Source: Patescibacteria group bacterium (GTDB lineage Bacteria > Patescibacteriota > Minisyncoccia > Phycocordibacterales > GCA-2747955). From it: DNA of 64,000 nucleotides. Position 1 is the stretch's first letter, and every line of letters starts with the position of its first letter. The stretch lies in the NCBI GenBank assembly GCA_048538215.1, contig JBLYPV010000001.1:547526-611525 (forward strand), read 5' to 3'. Position numbers and translations under genes: made by a program. The notes under the pieces were generated by a model. That model was not told the origin of the DNA. It saw nothing but the letters and a program-made list of their open reading frames with translations, and ran no database searches. Positions 6,010 through 56,704 of the stretch are shown here, one piece after another.

Positions 6010-6907
6010 CGACAAACAAAAACAAAAAAATATTTTTCGTATTACCGGAGGCTTGGGCAATCAGATGTGCCAGTATGCTTTTATGTATCAAAGGAGTAGG
6101 AAGAAGGGCGTAGATATGAAATTAGATATTACTTCATACAAAATTGCTCGATTGATGGGGTATGTCAATCACCATGGCTATGAATTGGATCGCATATTTG
6201 GCATTAAGGAGCGAGCAAGTATAGGTGAAATTATCAAGGTAGGCGGCTTGCAATATTATCTGCAAGTTTTGGCTCGCAAGCTTGGACTGATACCAAAAGT
6301 GGTAGGTGGTAGTAAGGTATGTGTAGAAAATAATCCCAGAGATTCACATAAGTATATATCTTCGTACCAATCCAATAATTGCAGATATTTTCAAGGATTT
6401 TTTGAGCACTATAAATATTATTATGAATATAAGGATGAATTAGGAAAAATTTTTACTTTTCCTAATTATCAAGATGAAAGAAATATACAACTTTCCCAAG
6501 AGATAGAGGTGAGTAATTCAGTGGGTATACACTTACGGAGAAATGATAAGGGTGAGTTTTTCCATAATGGAGATGCTGGTGGGCTAGATTATTACAAACA
6601 TGCCATTGAATGGATACGCAGGCATACCGATAATCCTACACTATATATATTTTCTAATGATCCAGATTGGTGTAAAAAAATTTTAGAAATCAAAGACGCA
6701 CATTATATATCGCACAATCAGGGTGACGATGCCTTTCGGGATATGCAACTTTTATCAGAATGTAAGCACTTGATAGTAGCTAATAGCACTTTCTCTTTCT
6801 GGGCGGGATTGCTCAAGATGCAGAAGGCGGGCTATATTATATGCCCAAAAATTTGGAATAAAACGAGAGATGGCCACCCGGCTCCAAAAGAATGGGTGCG
6901 AATCTAA
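6002..6907 (+). CDS. GT11-family alpha-1,2-fucosyltransferase-like glycosyltransferase
   Basis: Signature GGLGNQMCQYAF near the N-terminus is the GT11 (FutC/WbsJ) motif. Confidence 0.6.
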   Translation: MIDDKQKQKNIFRITGGLGNQMCQYAFMYQRSRKKGVDMKLDITSYKIARLMGYVNHHGYELDRIFGIKERASIGEIIKVGGLQYYLQVLARKLGLIPKVVGGSKVCVENNPRDSHKYISSYQSNNCRYFQGFFEHYKYYYEYKDELGKIFTFPNYQDERNIQLSQEIEVSNSVGIHLRRNDKGEFFHNGDAGGLDYYKHAIEWIRRHTDNPTLYIFSNDPDWCKKILEIKDAHYISHNQGDDAFRDMQLLSECKHLIVANSTFSFWAGLLKMQKAGYIICPKIWNKTRDGHPAPKEWVRI

Positions 6908-8632: not shown

Positions 8633-10051
8633 ATGGCAATGCCTTCTCGCCGAATGATTTTGAGCCTCATTTTTATAGGATTCGTGCTATTTGTATTGGG
8701 GGTGCTTGTGTGGTATTTTAGCCCAGCTTTTTTTGGTCCGAGCACGCAAGATGGTGATAGCGGAAGGGGCGGAGGTATCAATCTATTTCCTTTTGGTGAC
8801 AGTGGGGGCGAAGGAGATCAGGGAGCAGGAGGGCAAGTGGTAGACCAGGGAGATACAGATACTCAAGATAAAGAGCAGGATCTTGGGCGTATGCCTCGCT
8901 TGCGGATGGTGAGCAAGGGGCCAGTGATTGCGGCTACGATGAGCCAAGCTTCATCGCATAGTGGTATCGTGGGGCCTTCGGCTACAAGCACTAATGATGC
9001 GGGGATAGAAAATAGTATTCGCTATGTAGAGCTGGGCACAGGGCATATATATGAGGCATCTACTTTTAATCGAGACATTACTCGGCTCTCCAATACCACT
9101 ATTCCTCGAATCAATGAAGCACAATTTGTGACACTAGATCGTATCTTGATGCGCTACACTGATGACTTGGGGAATTACAAGCTTTTCTCTGCTGAATTGG
9201 CTGATAACGCATCTCCAAGCGCCTCTACTCCCAAGCGCTTGCAGGGTATTTTCTTGCCCGATGGAGTGCGCTATATAGATGTGAGCCCTGAAGGAAAGCT
9301 GGTGTGGCTTCAGAATATGAGCAATGGTGTGCGTGTGGTGACCACCAATGCTCTCGGAGAAAATCAAAAACAAATATACTCCTCACCACTTTCTGAGTGG
9401 CGGATCGGCTGGTATGGATCAAATAATGAGGTGCTACTCCAGAGCACTCCTTCGTATGAGAGCTATGGAATGGCCTATACTTTAGATGCATCAAATGGAA
9501 GCTTGCGCCCTTATGGAGAAGCGCGCAAGGCACTAGGGGTGCTTCCTACCCCTGATCGTAAGCGAGCGCTCGTATCACTCAAGGCGGATGGACAGACACG
9601 ACTTTTTCTTTGGCGACAAGAGAGTAATGAGTATGTAGATCTTACCCCTCGTACTTTTGTCGAAAAATGTGTGTACGCCTCGGTACGAGATGAATTTTAT
9701 TGCGCAAGCCCGATAAGCCCTATAGCTCGTGCAGAGCCAGATTTGTGGTATCAAGGAGTGAGTAGCTATCGAGATGATATTTGGGTAATAGATGGACAAA
9801 CAGGGGCATCTGAGCTTGCACTAAGCCCTAGTGGACTCAGTGATGATCCAATCGATATTATTGATTTGGCCATTTCACCTGATGAGCAATTTTTGTACTT
9901 TCGAGATAAAGATACTCGCTCACTTTGGACATTCCAGATTGATTATATTCGCGGAAGTACTGAATCATCTAATTCGAGTGAGGTAGAATCGGCATCTGAG
10001 CCAGATTCTGGGCTAGACGCTGATACCGACGAAGAGCCATTCTTTGAATAG
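8633..10051 (+). CDS. membrane-anchored/secreted hypothetical protein (possible beta-propeller), acidic C-terminus
   Basis: N-terminal TM helix, Gly/Asp-rich linker, long beta-rich body, acidic tail. Confidence 0.4.
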   Translation: MAMPSRRMILSLIFIGFVLFVLGVLVWYFSPAFFGPSTQDGDSGRGGGINLFPFGDSGGEGDQGAGGQVVDQGDTDTQDKEQDLGRMPRLRMVSKGPVIAATMSQASSHSGIVGPSATSTNDAGIENSIRYVELGTGHIYEASTFNRDITRLSNTTIPRINEAQFVTLDRILMRYTDDLGNYKLFSAELADNASPSASTPKRLQGIFLPDGVRYIDVSPEGKLVWLQNMSNGVRVVTTNALGENQKQIYSSPLSEWRIGWYGSNNEVLLQSTPSYESYGMAYTLDASNGSLRPYGEARKALGVLPTPDRKRALVSLKADGQTRLFLWRQESNEYVDLTPRTFVEKCVYASVRDEFYCASPISPIARAEPDLWYQGVSSYRDDIWVIDGQTGASELALSPSGLSDDPIDIIDLAISPDEQFLYFRDKDTRSLWTFQIDYIRGSTESSNSSEVESASEPDSGLDADTDEEPFFE

Positions 10052-10103: not shown

Positions 10104-10176
10104 TGCACCTGTGGTGAAATGGATATCACAACGGTCTTCGGAACCGTCGTTCGGGGTTCGAATCCCTGCAGGTGCA
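10104..10176 (+). tRNA. tRNA-Arg (anticodon UCG)
   Basis: Cloverleaf folded by hand: acceptor tgcacct/aggtgca, anticodon stem acggt/accgt with loop cttcgga, T-arm cgggg-ttcgaat-ccctg; followed by hairpin terminator. Confidence 0.7.
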
Positions 10177-22827: not shown

Positions 22828-22835
22828 GGATTTTA

Positions 22836-22881
22836 AAATTAGGTATTAATTACTACACGTGTAGTAATTAATACCTAATTT
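22836..22881. repeat. 46-bp perfect palindrome centred on CACGTG (copy 1 of 3)
   Basis: aaattaggtattaattactaCACGTGtagtaattaatacctaattt. Confidence 0.9.
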
Positions 22882-22897: not shown

Positions 22898-23482
22898 ATG
22901 AAATTAGGCAGAAGAGAGAAGGCGGTACTCGAAGAGCTACTCGCGTTCCCTGGAGATTATGCTATGAGCTTTTTGTTGTCTCGTGGGTCACTGATGCGGA
23001 TGTATGATATTGGAATTGAACGAAGAGAAGAGCGGGCTCTTAAGCGACAACAGTACTATGATCTTAAAAAGCGGAAAAAATTATTACTAGAGCGTCTCGA
23101 GCGCAAGGGCCTCGTCACTTTAGTGCCAGATGGGGATGATATACAAGTCAAACTGACCAAAACTGGCCATTCTTTTGCTGGGGTAGCTCAATTGCTCAAT
23201 GCCTCGAATAAGAAAAATGATGCCAAGTGGGATGGCAAGTGGACACTGGTGATGTTTGATATGCCAAAAGATCATTCGTATGAGCGTCAATCATTGGTGC
23301 ACTTGCTCAAACAAGTGGGCTTTATTCAAATTCAGATGTCGAATTATATTTTTCCATATGAGGTGCCTGCAGTGCAAGAATTTTTACTTCGTAATCCAAG
23401 TTTGGGTACTTATTGCCAGATATTTCGAGGAAAGTATCTAGGGGATGATACTAAATTACGAGAGAAATTTGATTTAAGATAA
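22898..23482 (+). CDS. small wHTH protein with C-terminal Cas2/VapD-like ferredoxin-fold domain (PaaX-like?)
   Basis: N-terminus predicted helical (REKAVLEELLAF...); C-terminus WTLVMFDMPKD..ERQSLVHLLKQVGFIQIQMSNYIF resembles the beta1-alpha-beta core of Cas2/PaaX_C; flanked by palindromes. Confidence 0.35.
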   Translation: MKLGRREKAVLEELLAFPGDYAMSFLLSRGSLMRMYDIGIERREERALKRQQYYDLKKRKKLLLERLERKGLVTLVPDGDDIQVKLTKTGHSFAGVAQLLNASNKKNDAKWDGKWTLVMFDMPKDHSYERQSLVHLLKQVGFIQIQMSNYIFPYEVPAVQEFLLRNPSLGTYCQIFRGKYLGDDTKLREKFDLR

Positions 23483-23513: not shown

Positions 23514-23561
23514 AAAATTAGGTATTAATTACTACACGTGTAGGGATTAATGCCTAATTTT
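23514..23561. repeat. CACGTG-centred palindrome, copy 2 (imperfect right arm)
   Basis: aaaattaggtattaattactaCACGTGtagggattaatgcctaatttt. Confidence 0.85.
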
Positions 23562-37121: not shown

Positions 37122-38018
37122 TTAAGTATTGCCGTGATATTTACTGTGCACCTCTTTGAGAAATTTATCTGAAAGCTTGGTGTATACCTGGGTGGTATTG
37201 ATACTAGCGTGCCCTAGGAGCATCTGTACCGAGCGAATATCAGCACCATTGTGGAGCAGGTCGGTAGCAAAATAGTGGCGTAGATCATGTGGAGTCACCC
37301 TGCGCATAATCCCTGCTTCTCGTGCGCGCTTGTTGAGAATCCGCTGGACGGCTCGTGGGTAGATAGCACTTCCTGTTTTCATCACAAAAAGTGCAGGCGA
37401 GAGAATAGGGAGATCTGCTTGGTGTCGAAGATCCAGATAGGCGCGCGTGGCTCTGCGGGCAGCTTGGGAGATAAACACGAGGCGTAATTTCTCGCCTTTT
37501 CCACGGATGGTTAGCTCATCGCGAGACAAATCGATGTCTTCTTTGAGGCTACAAAGCTCGGACACGCGAAGCCCTGTGGAGTAAAGGAATTCGAGAATTG
37601 CTTTGTCGCGAATGTCTTCAAGATCGCTACCGCTTGGGGCGCTCATCAGGCGATTAAATTCATCACGGGTGATTACATCAAGCTCTCGCTGGGCTGTTTG
37701 GGCGAGCTCGATTTTGCTAGCTTCGAGCGTGCTTATATCCCGCTTGGCAAGGTATTTTAAAAAAGAGCGAAGGGCGATGAGGTATTTGTTTTGTGTGGTT
37801 TTTTTCATTGTTCCTTCACGAGTAGGGCTTCTATTGAGCGCGATGCGAAAGGATCGGACAGATTCGGCGGTGATATCTTGAACGCGAGTGATCTGTGCGT
37901 ATTCAAAATACGCTTTGATGTAGCGTTCGTACATAGTAATAGTATGCACACTGCGCCCCTTTTCAATTTCGAGGTACTCAAGGAATTCACCAAGGTAGTG
38001 AGTAGTATTCTGCGACAT
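37122..38018 (-). CDS. xerC: XerC/XerD-family tyrosine recombinase
   Basis: C-terminal HDLRHYFATDLLHNGADIRSVQMLLGHASINTTQVYT (R..HxxR..Y); start set at MSQNTTHYL. Confidence 0.8.
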   Translation of the reverse strand: MSQNTTHYLGEFLEYLEIEKGRSVHTITMYERYIKAYFEYAQITRVQDITAESVRSFRIALNRSPTREGTMKKTTQNKYLIALRSFLKYLAKRDISTLEASKIELAQTAQRELDVITRDEFNRLMSAPSGSDLEDIRDKAILEFLYSTGLRVSELCSLKEDIDLSRDELTIRGKGEKLRLVFISQAARRATRAYLDLRHQADLPILSPALFVMKTGSAIYPRAVQRILNKRAREAGIMRRVTPHDLRHYFATDLLHNGADIRSVQMLLGHASINTTQVYTKLSDKFLKEVHSKYHGNT

Positions 38019-38135
38019 AATTGTATTGTAATCTAAAAATTGGAAATTAAAAATCAAAATGGATTGAGTGGGAGTGTTTTAATGACATTGCTTATTTTTT
38101 AATGACATTGCTTATATAGGGGACATATAGGGCAG

Positions 38136-38187
38136 AAAAATTAGGTAATAATCCCAACACGTGTAGGGATTATTACCTAATTTTTTT
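38136..38187. repeat. CACGTG-centred palindrome, copy 3
   Basis: aaaaattaggtaataatcccaaCACGTGtagggattattacctaattttt; inner arms differ from copy 1 but stay complementary. Confidence 0.85.
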
Positions 38188-47037: not shown

Positions 47038-50000
47038 ATGACTACAATTCGTGAATCACTTGCAGCTAAAATGCTTGCAGGTGCAATCGCTGTTGTCATG
47101 ACACTCTCAGCTTTCTCAACATTCGCGCAGACTGCAAATGCAGCTACCGATATTGAACAGCTATGTGCACTTGCTGCATCACTCGGGATTTCGACTCCTG
47201 AATTTGATGCACTATGTGCCGGAGTGGGCGATGACTCAGTAGGGGCTGGTGAATATGTTCACCACCCATCAATTGATTTCGAGTTTACTCGAAATCTGTA
47301 CATCGGATCTCGTGGAAACGATGTCTTGATGTTACAAAAAGTGTTGAACCTAAATGCTGATACGCGAGTAGCGCTATCAGGAGCTGGTTCACCTGGAAAT
47401 GAAACTTCATACTTTGGTCCTGCGACCAGAGCTGCTGTAGCTAAATTCCAGGCTAAGCACAACATTTCTCCAACAGCTGGGTATTTCTACCCACTGACTC
47501 GCGCAGAAATGAATCGTAAATCAGCTGGCACACCAGACAATGGTGATGACGACAATGGTGATGACGACAATGGCGTGACCGGAGATAGATTAGAAGTAGA
47601 AGCTGGTGATCAGCCACGGGATATGAAAGTGGGTCCTGCCCAACAACACATTCCTACCACTGTACTCGAGCTTACTACCGGAGATGAAGATGTGAAAATT
47701 ACTGAAATTACCGCTAAGGTAACAGGAAAAGCTCGAAAAGCAGTAGATTCTGTAAGCGTCTGGTACGATGGGAAAATCATTGATACCGACTCAGTAAACT
47801 CACGAGGTATTTCTGACCTTAAATTCAATCTAGAGATTGATGATGGGGAAACAGTAGAACTCGCATTCTCCGCTACTATGGAAAGTAATATCGATAGTCA
47901 AGACGGATTAGACTTCCGAATTGAAATTACTGACATTAAAGTAGGTGGCGACACCGATGTGGACGGCCTACCAGTAGATGGAGCCCAACACACCGCAAAC
48001 AAAAATGTTGAGCTCAATTCATTCTCTATGCAGATTGATGGCGAGGGAGGCAAGGTAAAAATCGGTGACAAGGAAGTGCTTCTATCTACTATCAACTTCA
48101 AGAATGATGATCCAAACAACGACAAAGACTCAATGTTTGTCCTTGGATTCTCATTGGAGCAAGATGGTACTATGAGCTCAGGTGACATTAAAGATGTCTT
48201 CGTAAAGGTAGATGGAGATGAATACGAAGCAGATATCAATGGTGATTACTACCGATTTGATTTCGGAAGTGGTATTGAAATCGATGCCAATAAGAATTTG
48301 GACTTCGAGGTATATGCCGACATCGTAGATGGAGCCAACAAGAATGTGAATTTCAGCCTTGATGCTGATGATCTTGTAGACTTCGTATACGTAGTAGACG
48401 AAGATGATCGATACCTTGCTGAGACAAATGCAACTGTAGGTACAAAGGGTAGCGCAGTGACCATCGAAGCAGGTGAAGGTAACACATCAGGCTCAAATCT
48501 AGTAACAGATAGCAATATCACTGCTGGAGAAGATGAGGCAGAATTTGCTTCATTCAAGCTTAATGTGAAAGGTGAATCAATCACTGGAGATGTGAAGGTA
48601 ACAATCAATGTTACCAATGGAAACAACACTGATTCAGATGACATTCAACTTACTGGTATCAAGATTGTAGATGAAGATGGCAATACTGTTGCCTCAGCAG
48701 ATGATGATACTGTCACTGCTACTACTACTATCGTTATTGAATTTGAAGATGTGACATTCCCAATCGGAAATGCTGCATACATCTTGGTAGCCGATGTACC
48801 AGATGATGTGACAGACGCTACTACCTACACGGTAGCAAGCTTTGTCTTTACATCCTTCAAGGGAGATAATTCAAGAGAGTCAATTAATGTAAGCACTACA
48901 AATCCTGGTACTGTACAAACAGTAGAAGGAGCTAAGCTCGCTATGGGAGTAGATTCATCTATTGAAAGTGATGAAACTCGTGACGATGTGGAAGGTGTAG
49001 AGCTAGCTGTAATACAGCTTGATGCTGTAGACTCAGGTGAAGATATTGAGGTGACTACCATCTCTCTTAACTTCGTTGCAAGTACTTCTCTAGCTAATCC
49101 TTATGATGAGATTACCAATTGTGTCTTGATGAAAGATGGTGAAGAGGTATCCGATATGGTAGACCTCTCAGCTCTTACCAATCAAGACTTCGATATGGAT
49201 TCTGGATTCACTGTGCCTGAAGGCACTGTGGTGGCTCTCTCACTTCAGTGTGATTTGAGTGACGGCTGGAATACAGGTGATACCATCACCGTAACCGTGA
49301 GCACTTCAAGCTCTCGAGCTCAAGCTGATATAGCTGGAAGTATTGATCCAACAGCTGGAAGCAATACCGGAGACACTGTTACTATCGTAGCTGGTAGCCT
49401 TACTTCAGGAAATGCAAAAGATCCTGAAAATCGATCAGTACGAGTAAACACTACGGTGGATCTTGGATCCGTAGAGCTTAAGAGTGATAATGTATCAGGA
49501 GAGCTCCAAGAGCTTCCTCTACGAATCACTGGTAAAGTGTTATTGAGTGGAAACAGAAAAGTAGAGATCCTTAATGCAGACGGAGATGTAGTAGCAGATG
49601 CTTACTTCACTTCAGACAACATTGTGGTAAAGAGCTTTAAGAAGAAAGTAACGCTTGTGAAAGACCAAAAGACCAAGCTATACTTCCGAGCACTACTCGG
49701 AGCTGGAAACCCAGCTACTGAAGGCACTGATCTCTCGATTGACATTGACGGCGATGTAGATGTAAAGGTAGCTGGAGATACATACTCTGTGGCTTCTACT
49801 ACTCTTACTGCTGTAGATGTCTACTCTGGACTTCCTGTAATTACAGAGCAAGATGTAACAGGATCTGATATCTCAGACAATGTGGTGATGAAATTCGCTA
49901 TTACGGCTGAGGGAGAAGATATTATTCTTGCTTCTACTACTGCTACCTCGGTATCAGTATCAGGAAGTGCCACTACTGGAGTTGTAAATATCTACCATCA

Positions 50001-50268
50001 CGATGATGGCTACGATAAGGCAGTAACAAGCGGTACGCTACTATCTGCTGGAAACGTAACCATTGAGAAGGGAGATACTCACTTCTTCGTAGTAAAGGGT
50101 ACTGGAGTAAGTGAGGGAGCTAGCGGTGACTACATCCAAACTACTATTGACTTTACTAATAGAGTAGGAGTAGGTACCATGGCAGATCTCATTAGTGTTG
50201 TACGAGGAGATAATATCAATTCTCGCATCAATAATAGTGAAGAACTTGTCTACAAGTACACTAACTAA
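47038..50268 (+). CDS. giant surface protein: signal peptide + peptidoglycan-binding (PG_binding_1-like) domain + long Asp/Thr/Val-rich beta region
   Basis: Signal peptide ...FAQTANA; LYIGSRGNDVLMLQKVLN...YFGPATRAAVAKFQAKHNISPTAGYF. Confidence 0.55.
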   Translation: MTTIRESLAAKMLAGAIAVVMTLSAFSTFAQTANAATDIEQLCALAASLGISTPEFDALCAGVGDDSVGAGEYVHHPSIDFEFTRNLYIGSRGNDVLMLQKVLNLNADTRVALSGAGSPGNETSYFGPATRAAVAKFQAKHNISPTAGYFYPLTRAEMNRKSAGTPDNGDDDNGDDDNGVTGDRLEVEAGDQPRDMKVGPAQQHIPTTVLELTTGDEDVKITEITAKVTGKARKAVDSVSVWYDGKIIDTDSVNSRGISDLKFNLEIDDGETVELAFSATMESNIDSQDGLDFRIEITDIKVGGDTDVDGLPVDGAQHTANKNVELNSFSMQIDGEGGKVKIGDKEVLLSTINFKNDDPNNDKDSMFVLGFSLEQDGTMSSGDIKDVFVKVDGDEYEADINGDYYRFDFGSGIEIDANKNLDFEVYADIVDGANKNVNFSLDADDLVDFVYVVDEDDRYLAETNATVGTKGSAVTIEAGEGNTSGSNLVTDSNITAGEDEAEFASFKLNVKGESITGDVKVTINVTNGNNTDSDDIQLTGIKIVDEDGNTVASADDDTVTATTTIVIEFEDVTFPIGNAAYILVADVPDDVTDATTYTVASFVFTSFKGDNSRESINVSTTNPGTVQTVEGAKLAMGVDSSIESDETRDDVEGVELAVIQLDAVDSGEDIEVTTISLNFVASTSLANPYDEITNCVLMKDGEEVSDMVDLSALTNQDFDMDSGFTVPEGTVVALSLQCDLSDGWNTGDTITVTVSTSSSRAQADIAGSIDPTAGSNTGDTVTIVAGSLTSGNAKDPENRSVRVNTTVDLGSVELKSDNVSGELQELPLRITGKVLLSGNRKVEILNADGDVVADAYFTSDNIVVKSFKKKVTLVKDQKTKLYFRALLGAGNPATEGTDLSIDIDGDVDVKVAGDTYSVASTTLTAVDVYSGLPVITEQDVTGSDISDNVVMKFAITAEGEDIILASTTATSVSVSGSATTGVVNIYHHDDGYDKAVTSGTLLSAGNVTIEKGDTHFFVVKGTGVSEGASGDYIQTTIDFTNRVGVGTMADLISVVRGDNINSRINNSEELVYKYTN

Positions 50269-50317: not shown

Positions 50318-50358
50318 AAAGCAACGACCCCCGTGCGTAAGCACGGGGGTTTTGCTTT
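50318..50358 (+). terminator. rho-independent terminator
   Basis: aaagcaacgacccccgtgcgtaagcacgggggttttgcttt. Confidence 0.65.
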
Positions 50359-50369
50359 GTCTCATTTAT

Positions 50370-50425
50370 CCCAGACACCCGATGTCTGGGAAACTGTGGA
50401 AAACCCAGACACCCGGTGTCTGGGG
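50370..50425. repeat. REP doublet (REPIN) 1: two palindromic REPs cccagacacccgRtgtctggg
   Basis: cccagacacccgatgtctggg-aaactgtggaaaa-cccagacacccggtgtctgggg. Confidence 0.85.
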
Positions 50426-50444
50426 TGGATGATAGGATTGGGGT

Positions 50445-51089
50445 ATGTCTTTGCGTTTTGGCAAACAACATATTGGAGGCATATACCACGTGTTTAACCG
50501 TGGTACTGACAAGCGCATTATTTTTACTGATAAACCGGATAAAGATAGATTTCTTTTATTGATGAAATTAATGAATAGTAAGGAGAATATTGGAAGCATG
50601 AGAGATTTTTTGGAAGGTAATCGATTGCAAAAAGAAGAAGAGCTAGAATCGAGCCCTCTAGTACGGATCATTGCTTTTTCATTGCAAGGCAATCATTACC
50701 ATCTATTGCTCGAACAAATTGAAGAAAATGGGGTGCAATTATTTATGCATAAATTAGGAATGGCTTATGCAAAATATTTTAACAGTAGACAGCAGAGAAC
50801 GGGCACTTTGTATCAAGGTAGATATAAGTATGTTGTTGCAGAAAGTCAGCATAGTGTAATGCGTCTTATCGCTTATATCAATCGCAATGAGGAAATGCAC
50901 AAAAGGAAGCGAGAAGAAGATTACTCAAGTAGAAAATGGTATGTCAGCAAAGAAGAGTACCCAATGGGATTGGAGCTGTATAAGGATCTGTTTGGGGACT
51001 ATGAGAAGCAAGAGGAGGATATTATTTTGCAATATAAACGACAACGCGATATTGATAGCAAGCACGATAGAGAGATATTCCTTGAATGA
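50445..51089 (+). CDS. REP-associated tyrosine transposase (RAYT; IS200/IS605 TnpA-like Y1 HUH transposase)
   Basis: HUH motif NHYHLLLE, catalytic Tyr region GTLYQGRYKYVV, GIYHVFNRG N-terminus; flanked on both sides by identical REP doublets. Confidence 0.7.
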   Translation: MSLRFGKQHIGGIYHVFNRGTDKRIIFTDKPDKDRFLLLMKLMNSKENIGSMRDFLEGNRLQKEEELESSPLVRIIAFSLQGNHYHLLLEQIEENGVQLFMHKLGMAYAKYFNSRQQRTGTLYQGRYKYVVAESQHSVMRLIAYINRNEEMHKRKREEDYSSRKWYVSKEEYPMGLELYKDLFGDYEKQEEDIILQYKRQRDIDSKHDREIFLE

Positions 51090-51090
51090 T

Positions 51091-51146
51091 CCCAGACACC
51101 CGATGTCTGGGAAACTGTGGAAAACCCAGACACCCGGTGTCTGGGG
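51091..51146. repeat. REP doublet (REPIN) 2, identical to copy 1
   Basis: Same 56-bp sequence directly after the RAYT stop codon. Confidence 0.85.
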
Positions 51147-51165
51147 TGGGGATGAATAGGGGCGT

Positions 51166-54040: not shown

Positions 54041-54583
54041 ATGAAGCAATACTCAAAACAGATACAATATAGCGAAGATATGGCTACAAGTGATAATGAA
54101 AATGGCTTTGTGATTTTGATTGCCGTCTTAGTCTCTTCTCTTTTGATTTCGCTGGGGGCTTTTATTGCAAGTATTGCCGTGAAGGAGCTTTCTCTCTCGG
54201 TGTCAGGGCGGGATTCCCAACTAGCTTTTTATGCGGCAGATGCGGCGGCGGAGTGTGCGCTCTATCAAGACCTACACATACAGGCCTTTACCTCATCTTC
54301 TTCTGCGCCGGGCCCCGCTACACTTTTGTGTAATAGTAGCCAGACGCCGATTGTTGTAGACAGTGGAAGGAGTGATGGTGATACAGGGGTAAGTAGCTTT
54401 GAAGTGTCTTTCCCTCTCAATGATGGGGATAATATAAATTTTTCACCCTATGCGGTGGTGCAGATTACCAAAGATGATATTGGAGGGCCAAATGATAAAA
54501 CGATTATTGAATCTCGGGGATATAATGTGAAATCGACATCAACAACCAATCGTGTGGAGCGCGCTTTGGAGGTGACCTACTAG
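54041..54583 (+). CDS. pilin-like protein (divergent N-terminus)
   Basis: ENG|FVILIAVLVSSLLISLGAF. Confidence 0.45.
   Translation: MKQYSKQIQYSEDMATSDNENGFVILIAVLVSSLLISLGAFIASIAVKELSLSVSGRDSQLAFYAADAAAECALYQDLHIQAFTSSSSAPGPATLLCNSSQTPIVVDSGRSDGDTGVSSFEVSFPLNDGDNINFSPYAVVQITKDDIGGPNDKTIIESRGYNVKSTSTTNRVERALEVTY

Positions 54584-54604: not shown

Positions 54605-56704
<2,100 letters not shown>

What the first reader, a model, noticed from the sequence alone, without database searches (positions are those of the whole stretch)
50370..51146. RAYT (REP-associated tyrosine transposase) flanked by identical REP doublets, with a third inverted REPIN 3.5 kb away
ORF 50445-51089 has the HUH motif (HYH) and a Tyr-containing GRYKY region typical of IS200/IS605-like Y1 transposases. 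It lacks IS ends but is flanked on both sides by the same 56-bp unit made of two palindromic REPs (cccagacacccgRtgtctggg). The reverse-complement unit occurs at 54605-54660, between the pilin cluster and ligA. This is the RAYT/REPIN architecture known from proteobacteria. Here it sits in a genome that otherwise looks like a reduced, CPR-like organism, where such systems are not well documented.
Basis: partly seen in the sequence, partly recalled or inferred. Interest (0 to 1): 0.7.

Follow-up and report, generated by a model that had tools for sequence, protein, structure and literature searches.

The report
Hairpin-flanked Y1 nuclease gene in CPR
A single-copy gene for a RAYT-like single-strand DNA cutting enzyme in a tiny-genome (Patescibacteria) bacterium is bracketed by identical hairpin repeats, and about 80 related genomes show the same layout with the hairpins kept close to, and often inside, the gene instead of spread across the genome as classical REPs are.

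Summary
A 61-nt unit of two 21-nt palindromes is 100% identical at 50368-50428 and 51089-51149, bracketing ORF 50445-51089. A third copy lies inverted at 54605-54659. Zero matches are expected by chance.

The ORF is an intact Y1 HUH enzyme. It passes Pfam Y1_Tnp. The AF2 model has pLDDT 89.8, and its best PDB match is E. coli TnpAREP bound to a REP hairpin. H84, H86 and Y144 are invariant, so the catalytic Tyr is in LIAYINRNE, not GRYKY.

It is not a canonical RAYT:
- It scores 17.6 bits against a cutoff of 80 on the NCBIfam RAYT model.
- The hairpins have no GTAG foot.

The gene is resident. Four lineages at 46-58% identity keep it between the same surface-protein gene and the prepilin peptidase, each with a different hairpin.

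The family is Patescibacteria-wide, with more than 586 genomic hits. In 86 homologous genes, 57% share a ≥14-nt sequence (nearly always a palindromic hairpin) between both flanks, against 2.4% of control genes. Most also carry that hairpin in frame at two fixed sites; the window gene does not.

Extra copies all lie within 6 kb of the gene. None occurs in 343 kb sampled further out. This is a REPtron-like module without a demonstrated genome-wide REP population, and I rate it a new variant of a known kind.

The parts
50326..50351 (+). Intrinsic terminator of the upstream large surface-protein gene (47038-50268). It is context, and shows that the doublet is not that gene's terminator.
   Evidence: an 11-pair, GC-rich stem followed by a T-run. 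The equivalent terminator sits at the same place in the syntenic loci L085 and L086.
50368..50428 (+). Upstream 61-nt hairpin doublet: REP1 50370-50390, 13-nt spacer 50391-50403, REP2 50404-50424. It ends 17 nt before the start codon.
   Evidence: As ssDNA it folds as one long hairpin at -20.6 kcal/mol, z = -5.4.
50445..51089 (+). Y1 HUH (TnpAREP-like) gene, 214 aa. HUH is H84 (50694-50696) and H86 (50700-50702). The catalytic Tyr is Y144 (50874-50876). The [F/Y]Q motif is at 123-124 and the SS tail motif at 160-161.
   Evidence: Pfam Y1_Tnp E = 3e-7. H84, H86 and Y144 are invariant in 38 homologues. The AF2 model has pLDDT 89.8. The top Foldseek hit is 4ER8, followed by IS608 and ISDra2 TnpA. 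Coordinates were verified.
51089..51149 (+). Downstream 61-nt hairpin doublet, identical to the upstream one: REP1 51091-51111, REP2 51125-51145. It starts at the last base of the stop codon.
   Evidence: The syntenic relative L001 keeps a related single hairpin at this position (TGTGGAAAACCCAGACACCGGGAGTCTGGGG).
54605..54659 (-). Third, solo copy of the whole doublet in inverted orientation. It lies in the 111-nt spacer between the last pilin-like ORF (stop at 54583) and ligA (start at 54695).
   Evidence: It folds as a 21-bp stem at -25.4 kcal/mol, z = -6.6. It is absent from the same intergenic region of the syntenic L001.

Best explanation
This is a REPtron-type module. It consists of a resident, vertically inherited Y1 HUH single-strand-DNA endonuclease/ligase (TnpAREP-like) together with its own cognate hairpins, which sit at fixed positions next to its gene.

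Proposed mechanism:
1. When the locus becomes single-stranded, at the replication fork or during transcription, the palindromes fold. They form either two 9-bp stem-loops or one long 21-bp hairpin.
2. The enzyme binds the folded hairpin and cleaves at its foot with Tyr144, using a metal ion held by H84/H86. This forms a 5'-phosphotyrosine intermediate.
3. The enzyme reseals the break onto another cleaved copy.
4. The result is short-range copying, replacement or homogenisation of the hairpin unit, because the enzyme acts mainly near its own gene.

This would account for the two identical flanking doublets, the solo inverted doublet 3.5 kb away, and, in relatives, the in-frame copies inside the gene and the decline in copy number with distance.

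Shown: the catalytic motifs and fold, the repeats and their predicted folding, the family-wide gene-hairpin association with paralogue-specific hairpins, the compensatory stem changes, and the local clustering.

Inferred: binding, cleavage and strand transfer; the preference for acting near its own gene; any benefit to the host.
For: Enzyme:
- Pfam Y1_Tnp is above its cutoff.
- H84, H86 and Y144 are invariant in 38 homologues.
- The AF2 model is confident (pLDDT 89.8). Its best PDB match is the TnpAREP-REP hairpin complex 4ER8 (E = 3.7e-5), followed by IS608 and ISDra2 TnpA.

Hairpins in the window:
- No match is expected by chance.
- ssDNA folding energies lie 5-6.6 sd below shuffles.
- The doublet is 60% GC in a 43% GC window.

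The gene is resident:
- Window, L001, L085 and L086 (46-58% aa identity) share the order surface protein, terminator, hairpin, Y1, hairpin, prepilin peptidase.
- Each lineage has a different hairpin sequence.

Family-wide pairing of gene and hairpin:
- 49 of 86 genes share at least 14 nt exactly between both flanks, against 14 of 579 control genes.
- The upstream hairpin ends about 10-25 nt before the start codon. The downstream hairpin usually starts within a few nt of the stop codon.
- The ten paralogue pairs within one genome are 34-62% identical. Across the four assemblies with paralogues on separate contigs, neither paralogue's hairpins occur in the other's locus.
- All 17 post-Tyr hairpins centred 40 nt after the Tyr codon are distinct sequences, and their stems are kept by changes on both sides.

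Local spread:
- 37 extra copies were found, 70% of them intergenic where about 15% of the DNA is intergenic.
- All lie within 6 kb of the gene.

The architecture matches the published REPtron definition (PMC8266576; PMC6006769).
Against: - No biochemical or population evidence of cleavage or mobility exists for this family.
- Only three doublets are visible, and the rest of the 622-kb contig could not be read.
- There is no conserved GTAG-like guide. Only a (T/G)AT precedes all three copies.
- The solo third doublet could be a relic of a deleted paralogue and not a transposed copy.
- The protein is as distant by sequence from TnpAREP (profile E = 0.41) as from IS200-type TnpA (E = 0.005).
- The upstream hairpin lies where a promoter or operator would be, so a purely regulatory role is not excluded.
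Confidence: 0.6

Rival explanations
1. The hairpins are regulatory or structural elements of the gene. They could be a palindromic operator overlapping the promoter, a 3' mRNA-stabilising or terminating hairpin, or an autoregulatory site bound by the protein. They are not transposition substrates, and the enzyme's real substrates lie elsewhere, for example on incoming or replicating ssDNA.
For: - Position is strikingly fixed. The upstream hairpin ends about 10-25 nt before the start codon, and the downstream hairpin usually starts within a few nt of the stop codon.
- Genes in this window have TATAAT boxes only about 10 nt before the ATG (pilD, ligA). The upstream hairpin would therefore sit over the -35/spacer region.
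- On the + strand the third copy is a GC-rich stem followed by TTTT, directly after the pilin operon.
- Cognate copies are essentially confined to the gene's vicinity.
Against: - The doublets have no T-run that meets the terminator criteria on the + strand, and the upstream gene has its own terminator.
- A regulatory role does not explain the same genome-specific hairpin being embedded in frame at two fixed sites in most homologues.
- It also does not explain the solo copies up to 6 kb away between unrelated genes.
- Known Y1 HUH proteins bind folded ssDNA, not duplex operators (PMC8266576).
Confidence: 0.2
2. The segment hairpin-gene-hairpin (about 780 bp) is an autonomous IS200-like insertion sequence that moves as a unit. 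The solo doublet is a left-over end or a MITE-like derivative.
For: - A coding sequence bordered by palindromes is also the IS200/IS605 layout.
- The protein matches Pfam Y1_Tnp and IS608/ISDra2 TnpA structures.
- Some close orthologue pairs (70-80% identity) share no neighbouring genes.
Against: - There is one copy in 64 kb.
- The ten paralogue pairs within a genome are only 34-62% identical, where IS copies would be near-identical.
- The gene holds the same syntenic position in four lineages at 46-58% identity.
- The two ends are identical direct repeats, not distinct left and right ends.
- The Tyr motif is YINRN (class-2-like), not the Y---Q of IS200.
- There is no tnpB.
Confidence: 0.12
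3. The third doublet, and the solo copies near homologues, are scars of former tandem Y1 paralogues. The paralogues were deleted by recombination between their flanking direct repeats, so no hairpin mobility is needed.
For: - Two diverged Y1 paralogues lie about 3-7 kb apart in six loci: L013, L041, L053, L062, L066 and L073.
- Solo copies lie at exactly that distance range, up to 6 kb.
- Identical 61-nt direct repeats flanking the window gene are a ready substrate for such a deletion.
Against: - Paralogues carry different hairpins, whereas the solo copies match the hairpin of the surviving gene.
- The third doublet differs from the flanking ones at a single base, which implies a recent common origin.
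- No Y1 pseudogene remnant can lie next to it, because the intergenic spacer is only 111 nt.
Confidence: 0.08

Closest known systems
REPtron: TnpAREP/RAYT with flanking REP/BIME (E. coli yafM, PDB 4ER8; Quentin class 2 subclasses 2.2 and 2.5 = Bertels groups 2 and 3)
   Same: - A single-copy, non-mobile Y1 HUH gene bracketed by its own cognate palindromes.
- Paralogues each carry their own palindrome family.
- TnpAREP is the best structural match.
- The doublet can fold as a long REPIN-like hairpin and was copied as a unit.
   Different: - 17.6 bits on the NCBIfam RAYT model, against a cutoff of 80.
- The Tyr motif is YINRNE (P lost) and [F/Y]Q replaces WQ/WE.
- There is no GTAG tetranucleotide at the hairpin foot.
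- The hairpins are perfect 9-11-bp stems with 3-nt loops.
- No genome-wide population was seen. Copies are confined to within about 6 kb of the gene in 82 loci.
- The hosts are ultra-small CPR genomes, whereas class-2 genes were reported to favour large genomes (PMC6006769).
TnpAY1 subclass 2.4 (Bertels group 4) and 2.8: REPs inserted in frame inside tnpAREP
   Same: - Cognate palindromes occur inside the gene without breaking the reading frame.
- The HUH motif is NH[F/Y]H (NHYH as in subclass 2.8).
   Different: [quoted passage not shown]
- Here they sit at two fixed sites outside the HuH-Y core: 44-80 nt before HUH, and centred 40 nt after the Tyr codon.
- They are length-conserved even where degenerate, as in the window gene.
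- Subclass 2.4 REPs are long or 'double-foot' with GT[AG]G.
TnpAY1 subclass 2.1 / TIRYT (Bertels group 1)
   Same: - The motif set NH[YF]H, FQ, Y[IV]xLN(P).
- The size (median 238 aa) and the conserved SS-containing C-terminal tail resemble this CPR family.
   Different: - Subclass 2.1 genes were reported to have no REP-like structures nearby. TIRYTs have terminal inverted repeats GGGG[AT][CG]A[CG].
- The CPR genes have flanking hairpins in about 70% of cases.
IS200 (IS200/IS605 family, TnpA only)
   Same: - A Y1 HUH enzyme gene of similar total unit size (about 0.7-0.8 kb), bordered by perfect palindromes.
   Different: - No multicopy identical elements.
- The gene is syntenically fixed.
- The two ends are identical.
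- The Y motif is not Y---Q.
- The protein is longer, with a C-terminal tail.
Rickettsia palindromic elements (RPE); recalled from memory, not tested here
   Same: - Palindromic repeats tolerated in frame inside protein-coding genes.
   Different: - RPEs are about 100-150 bp, are dispersed in many unrelated genes, and have no known cognate enzyme.
- Here the in-frame copies sit mainly in the gene of the putative cognate enzyme.

Membership tests
Y1 HUH transposase-like superfamily (Pfam PF01797, TnpAY1) | Pfam Y1_Tnp score above the gathering cutoff | tested here: met
   31 bits against a cutoff of 23, E = 3e-7.
Y1 HUH transposase-like superfamily (Pfam PF01797, TnpAY1) | An HUH motif and a single catalytic Tyr, both conserved on alignment | tested here: met
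   H84, H86 and Y144 are invariant in 38 homologues. The ISDra2 TnpA profile alignment places the HUH under HVH and the Tyr under its catalytic Tyr.
Y1 HUH transposase-like superfamily (Pfam PF01797, TnpAY1) | TnpA-type fold | tested here: met
   The AF2 model has pLDDT 89.8. Foldseek against the PDB returns 4ER8, then the IS608, ISDra2 and IS200 TnpA structures, at probability 1.00.
RAYT / TnpAREP (class 2, REP-associated) | Sequence membership by the curated model NCBIfam NF047646 REP_Tyr_transpos | tested here: not met
   17.6 bits against a cutoff of 80.
RAYT / TnpAREP (class 2, REP-associated) | Class-2 Tyr motif Y---NP (PMC6006769) | tested here: inconclusive
   The window has Y144-I-N-R-N148-E, so the Asn is kept and the Pro is lost. 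More distant family members have YIHxNP or YINVINP (table).
RAYT / TnpAREP (class 2, REP-associated) | Single copy, housekeeping-like, no evidence of gene mobility | tested here: met
   One copy in 64 kb. The position is syntenic in four lineages. Paralogues elsewhere are 34-62% identical.
RAYT / TnpAREP (class 2, REP-associated) | Gene flanked by cognate palindromes (REPtron arrangement) | tested here: met
   Identical 61-nt doublets lie on both sides. Family-wide, 49 of 86 genes share a flanking sequence against 14 of 579 controls.
REP (repetitive extragenic palindromes) | A conserved 5' tetranucleotide (GTAG / GT[AG]G) at the hairpin foot | tested here: not met
   The flanks read TTAT, TGAT and TGATC before CCCAGAC. 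The family consensus is cACTTGGAnGC-NNN-GCnTCCAAGTg, with no GTAG.
REP (repetitive extragenic palindromes) | High copy number dispersed genome-wide in intergenic DNA | not testable with these tools
Within the window, all six palindromes lie within 4.3 kb and none lies in the other 60 kb or so. In 82 homologous loci there are no cognate copies in 343 kb sampled more than 6 kb from the gene, which argues against this feature.
REPIN | Two REPs in inverted orientation that fold as one long hairpin and replicate as a unit | tested here: inconclusive
   The ssDNA minimum-energy fold is one long hairpin pairing REP1 with REP2. The whole doublet, including its 13-nt spacer, was copied to 54605-54659. 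Each REP is itself a palindrome, and by loop sequence the two are in direct orientation. Only one extra copy is known.
IS200/IS605 insertion sequence | Multiple near-identical copies, distinct left and right subterminal hairpins, and a Y---Q motif | tested here: not met
   There is one copy. The two ends are identical. The Tyr motif is YINRN. Paralogues are at most 62% identical.

The most novel reading that the evidence does not exclude
The Patescibacteria Y1 family may be a distinct, self-contained class of domesticated HUH system, not a REP disperser. In this reading each enzyme maintains a small private set of cognate hairpins at four fixed positions: about 35 nt upstream of the start codon, two in-frame sites inside its own coding sequence, and the stop codon. 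Occasional copies arise within about 6 kb. The module would act only near its own gene. It could do so by self-homogenising strand transfer, by local genome structuring, or by switching. In this window, for example, the inverted doublets bracket the pilD-pilin operon. The family could also represent an evolutionary intermediate between IS200 and REPtrons, retained in hundreds of minimal genomes because it serves the host.
Probability: 0.3. Interest if true: 0.8.

Novelty: new variant of a known kind. Interest (0 to 1): 0.6.

Why it matters
What RAYT/TnpAREP systems do for their hosts, and how REPs spread, are still open questions (PMC8266576). Earlier surveys found class-2 Y1 genes mainly in large genomes and none in Mollicutes, and they did not cover CPR (PMC6006769).

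This work shows a RAYT-like enzyme family that is very common in about 1-Mb Patescibacteria genomes. It comprises 2,103 clusters at 50% identity with E ≤ 1e-10, and more than 586 genomic hits. In this family the gene-hairpin pairing is reduced to a handful of copies at fixed positions, including inside the gene.

That gives a minimal natural system in which three things become directly testable:
- cognate recognition;
- action limited to the neighbourhood of the gene;
- co-evolution of enzyme and hairpin.

It also cautions against two annotation habits. "Transposase" labels in CPR MAGs should not be read as active IS elements, and a RAYT-like fold does not imply a genome-wide REPIN population.

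Tried and rejected
- **Exact REP pattern in GTDB genomes:** no hit, so the source species is not represented there.
- **Degenerate REP pattern in JGI metagenome contigs:** three hits, all unrelated. One lay in a GC-rich coding region and two were isolated hairpins. The collection does not hold even L001's sample, so no genome-wide count was possible.
- **Exact-protein lookup of P0001:** not on record, so the rest of the 622-kb contig could not be read.
- **The search for related loci with the 38-sequence alignment:** I repeated it with 13 sequences.
- **phmmer against PDB:** only spurious hits. The profile search reached ISDra2 TnpA and 4ER8 weakly.
- **afdb50 fold library:** unavailable.
- **Rfam on the doublets:** only sub-threshold miRNA-like hits to a generic long hairpin.
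- **Terminator hypothesis:** rejected. There is no adequate T-run, and the upstream gene has its own terminator.
- **GRYKY as the catalytic Tyr:** rejected by alignment.
- **Internal in-frame hairpins in the window gene:** none. Two of 10 possible pairs form at the post-Tyr site, and the segment KRKREEDY is a length-conserved degenerate remnant.
- **Position-anchored mean pairing profiles:** uninformative because of indels. I used the fraction of genes with at least 9 of 10 pairs instead.
- **Neighbour-sharing as a synteny measure across the 82 loci:** noisy and not decisive.
- **Literature searches for RAYT, REP or IS200 in CPR/Patescibacteria:** nothing relevant.
Full report
**1. The observation**

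- The 21-nt palindrome CCCAGACACCCGRTGTCTGGG occurs six times, at 50370, 50404, 51091, 51125, 54605 and 54639. It occurs nowhere else in 64 kb. Dinucleotide-preserving shuffles gave no match at all.
- The repeated unit is 61 nt and 100% identical at 50368-50428 and 51089-51149. It consists of two palindromes separated by the spacer AAACTGTGGAAAA.
- The third copy (54605-54659) is the reverse complement. Its one difference is at the loop centre of one palindrome.
- The third copy is intergenic. The last pilin-like ORF stops at 54583, and by comparison with L001 the true ligA start is the ATG at 54695.
- The doublet is 60% GC in a 43% GC window.

**2. The protein**

ORF 50445-51089 encodes 214 aa.
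- It passes Pfam Y1_Tnp at 31 bits against a cutoff of 23.
- It scores only 17.6 bits on NCBIfam's RAYT equivalog model, whose cutoff is 80.
- In an alignment of 38 homologues the invariant columns are H84, H86, L122 and Y144. HYH is therefore the HUH motif. The nucleophile is Y144 in LIAYINRNE.
- A family profile reaches ISDra2 TnpA at E = 0.005 and E. coli TnpAREP at E = 0.41.
- The AlphaFold model is confident, with pLDDT 89.8 and pTM 0.87.
- Its best PDB match is 4ER8, TnpAREP bound to a REP hairpin (E = 3.7e-5). IS608, ISDra2 and IS200 TnpA follow.
- The motif set is NHYH, [F/Y]Q, Y-x3-N and an SS tail. Against the TnpAY1 classification of Quentin et al. (PMC6006769) this is class-2-like, closest to the 2.1, 2.4 and 2.8 patterns. 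It does not fit any subclass cleanly.

**3. Organism and residency**

The identical protein is recorded as "MAG: transposase [Patescibacteria group bacterium]" on a 622,806-bp contig.

Four lineages share one gene order: the window, L001 (58% aa identity), L085 (49%) and L086 (46%). The order is:
1. a large surface protein ending in ...YKYTN (…YTYTN in L086);
2. an intrinsic terminator;
3. a hairpin;
4. the Y1 gene;
5. a hairpin;
6. a TATAAT box followed by the prepilin peptidase.

In L001 the four pilin-like genes and ligA follow as well. The gene is therefore vertically inherited at this site and is not a recent insertion.

The hairpins differ between these lineages.

| Lineage | Hairpin |
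|---|---|
| Window | CCCAGACAC-CCG-GTGTCTGGG doublets |
| L001 | a single related CCCAGACACCGGGAGTCTGGG |
| L085 | GATAGAAGT-NNN-ACTTCTATC |
| L086 | the 17-nt unit CCCAGTAGTCCAACCAC, as an inverted pair with a 21-bp stem upstream and a single copy downstream |

The stems are kept by paired changes. At this protein divergence, neutral non-coding DNA would not remain alignable, yet the window and L001 hairpins match at 19 of 21 positions.

**4. The family-wide pattern**

The best 79 loci come almost entirely from Patescibacteria MAGs. An exhaustive HMMER search gave 2,103 clusters at 50% identity with E ≤ 1e-10.

In these loci I located 88 Y1 genes.
- 49 of 86 genes with usable flanks share at least 14 nt exactly between the upstream and downstream flank. 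These shared sequences are nearly always palindromic hairpins. Only 14 of 579 other genes in the same loci do so.
- The upstream hairpin typically ends 10-25 nt before the start codon. The downstream hairpin usually starts within a few nt of the stop codon.
- Stems are mostly 9-11 bp with 3-nt loops. The family consensus is cACTTGGAnGC-NNN-GCnTCCAAGTg.
- The more distant 238-aa clade shows the same flanking pattern (L087, L091).
- The ten paralogue pairs from the same genome are 34-62% identical. Across the four assemblies with paralogues on separate contigs, neither paralogue's hairpins occur in the other's locus. This is the RAYT pattern, not the IS pattern.

**5. An unexpected family feature**

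In most homologues the same genome-specific hairpin also lies inside the coding sequence, in frame, at two fixed sites.

| Site | Position | Genes with a hairpin (of 82) |
|---|---|---|
| Before HUH | centred 44-80 nt upstream of the HUH codons | 53 |
| After Tyr | centred exactly 40 nt after the Tyr codon in 17 genes | 34 |
| All four positions (both flanks and both internal sites) | | 15 |

- The encoded peptides vary with the hairpin, for example QLGNPVSKL, NSRHRMSTI and YTGPSRASI. The constraint is therefore on the nucleic acid and not on the protein.
- The 17 hairpins centred at +40 are all different sequences. Their stems are kept by compensatory changes. At nearly all other Tyr-anchored offsets listed, no gene reaches 9 of 10 pairs.
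- The window gene has lost these copies. The segment KRKREEDY between ...EEMH and SSRKWY has the same length as the hairpin-encoded segment in relatives, but forms only 2 of 10 possible pairs.
- On the model, the two sites map to peripheral elements. The first covers residues about 52-68. The second is the loop at 152-162, just after the Tyr helix.
- REPs inserted in frame into tnpAREP have been reported for subclass 2.4. [quoted passage not shown]

**6. Are these REPs in the classical sense?**

I could not read the rest of the source genome. Within the window, all six palindromes lie within 4.3 kb.

In the homologous loci I found 37 cognate copies more than 300 nt from a Y1 gene. Of these, 70% are intergenic, where about 15% of the DNA is intergenic.

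Their density falls steadily with distance from the gene.

| Distance from nearest Y1 gene | Cognate copies per 10 kb |
|---|---|
| 0-300 nt | 26.5 |
| 0.3-1 kb | 1.09 |
| 1-2 kb | 0.61 |
| 2-3 kb | 0.45 |
| 3-4 kb | 0.44 |
| 4-6 kb | 0.27 |
| beyond 6 kb (343 kb sampled) | 0 |

Generic hairpins stay roughly flat across the bins beyond 300 nt, at about 1.9-3.2 per 10 kb. The family therefore shows a private, local hairpin set. It does not show the genome-wide populations that define REPs and REPINs (PMC8266576; PMC5581495). There is also no GTAG foot.

**7. Structure and alternative roles of the doublet**

- As ssDNA, the lowest-energy fold pairs REP1 with REP2 into one long hairpin. Energies run from -20.6 to -25.4 kcal/mol, with z from -5.4 to -6.6. 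This is REPIN-like.
- Each palindrome can also fold alone. By loop sequence the two are in direct orientation.
- The doublets are not the terminators of neighbouring genes. The upstream gene has its own terminator at 50326-50351. On the + strand no doublet was called terminator-like; only weak 5-pair alternative folds of the two flanking doublets were flagged, on the - strand.
- Rfam has no matching family.
- The upstream hairpin sits where the -35/spacer of a short-leader promoter would lie. A regulatory role therefore remains a live rival.

**8. Best explanation and rivals**

The best-supported reading is a REPtron-type module: a resident Y1 HUH ssDNA endonuclease/ligase together with its cognate hairpins. 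The enzyme would act mainly near its own gene to cleave and rejoin folded hairpins. This would keep the copies identical and occasionally seed new ones nearby, such as the inverted doublet at 54605-54659, which the syntenic L001 lacks. I give this a confidence of 0.6.

Rivals:
- purely regulatory hairpins, 0.2;
- an autonomous IS200-like element, 0.12;
- solo copies as scars of deleted tandem paralogues, 0.08.

No step of catalysis or mobility has been shown directly. These steps are inferred from the motifs, the fold, the architecture and the comparative patterns.

**9. Novelty**

The architecture is that of a known kind, the REPtron. This case departs from it in five ways:
- a different protein clade that fails the curated RAYT model;
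- a different hairpin type with no GTAG;
- fixed hairpin positions, including in-frame copies in relatives;
- confinement of copies to the gene's neighbourhood;
- a host group of minimal genomes that was absent from earlier surveys, in which class-2 Y1 genes tracked large genome size (PMC6006769).

I found no paper describing this in CPR. I rate it a new variant of a known kind, with interest 0.6.

Noticed in passing
window 22835-22881, 23515-23561 and 38136-38185: A second, unrelated palindrome family (~47 nt; AAAATTAGGTATTAATTACTACACGTGTAGTAATTAATACCTAATTT) brackets ORF 22898-23482. That ORF has a PaaX_M/Cas2-like domain plus a winged helix (Pfam). A variant of the palindrome lies between a divergent XerC-like integrase gene (37122-38057, - strand) and an ORF starting at about 38229 that I take to be rpsO (not checked against a family library). 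Each copy is preceded by ATATAGGG. It may be an operator set for that regulator, or another gene-associated repeat.
   Followed up: partly
L006-L084, e.g. L019:1697-2353, L008:3600-4316, L029:9959-10633: Most homologous Y1 genes carry their own genome-specific hairpin in frame at two fixed sites, one before HUH and one centred 40 nt after the Tyr codon. The encoded peptides follow the hairpin sequence (xLGxxxSKx, NSRHRMSTI, YTGPSRASI). The window gene has a length-conserved degenerate remnant (KRKREEDY).
   Followed up: yes
L014:14834-15540, L056:5021 and 11223-11270, L015:7572 and 11249: Some cognate hairpin copies 0.6-5 kb from a Y1 gene fall inside other long ORFs, sometimes as adjacent pairs. 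They may be in-frame insertions into unrelated genes. The ORFs were not annotated.
   Followed up: no
L001:4273-4345, 6667-6739 and 9697-9732: The syntenic relative has its own 73-nt repeat, 100% identical in two copies that flank ligA, with a partial third copy. The repeat contains an internal inverted repeat (GGCGGCAGAATA...TATTCTGCCGCC). It occupies the intergenic site where the window has the third REP doublet.
   Followed up: no
L089:9074-12327 (and L090): In one 238-aa family member the Y1 gene sits between dprA and a ComM-like Mg-chelatase gene, both ssDNA-uptake/processing functions. In the window it sits next to the prepilin peptidase/pilin cluster and ligA. This may be a coincidence of housekeeping neighbourhoods.
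   Followed up: no
window 10663-10816: A perfect 77-nt tandem duplication whose first copy begins inside or next to a tRNA gene on the - strand (10601-10671). A second tRNA lies at 10105-10176 on the + strand.
   Followed up: no
window 51091-51145 and 54605-54659: The two doublets are in inverted orientation and bracket the whole 3.46-kb prepilin-peptidase plus four-pilin cluster. In principle this is an invertible segment. No evidence of inversion is available from a single assembly.
   Followed up: no
L013, L041, L053, L062, L066 and L073: Two diverged Y1 paralogues (34-62% identity) lie about 3-7 kb apart on the same contig. In L013, L041, L053, L062 and L073 each has its own distinct hairpin; for L066 only one copy's flanks are readable. 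This suggests tandem duplication followed by co-divergence of enzyme and hairpin.
   Followed up: partly
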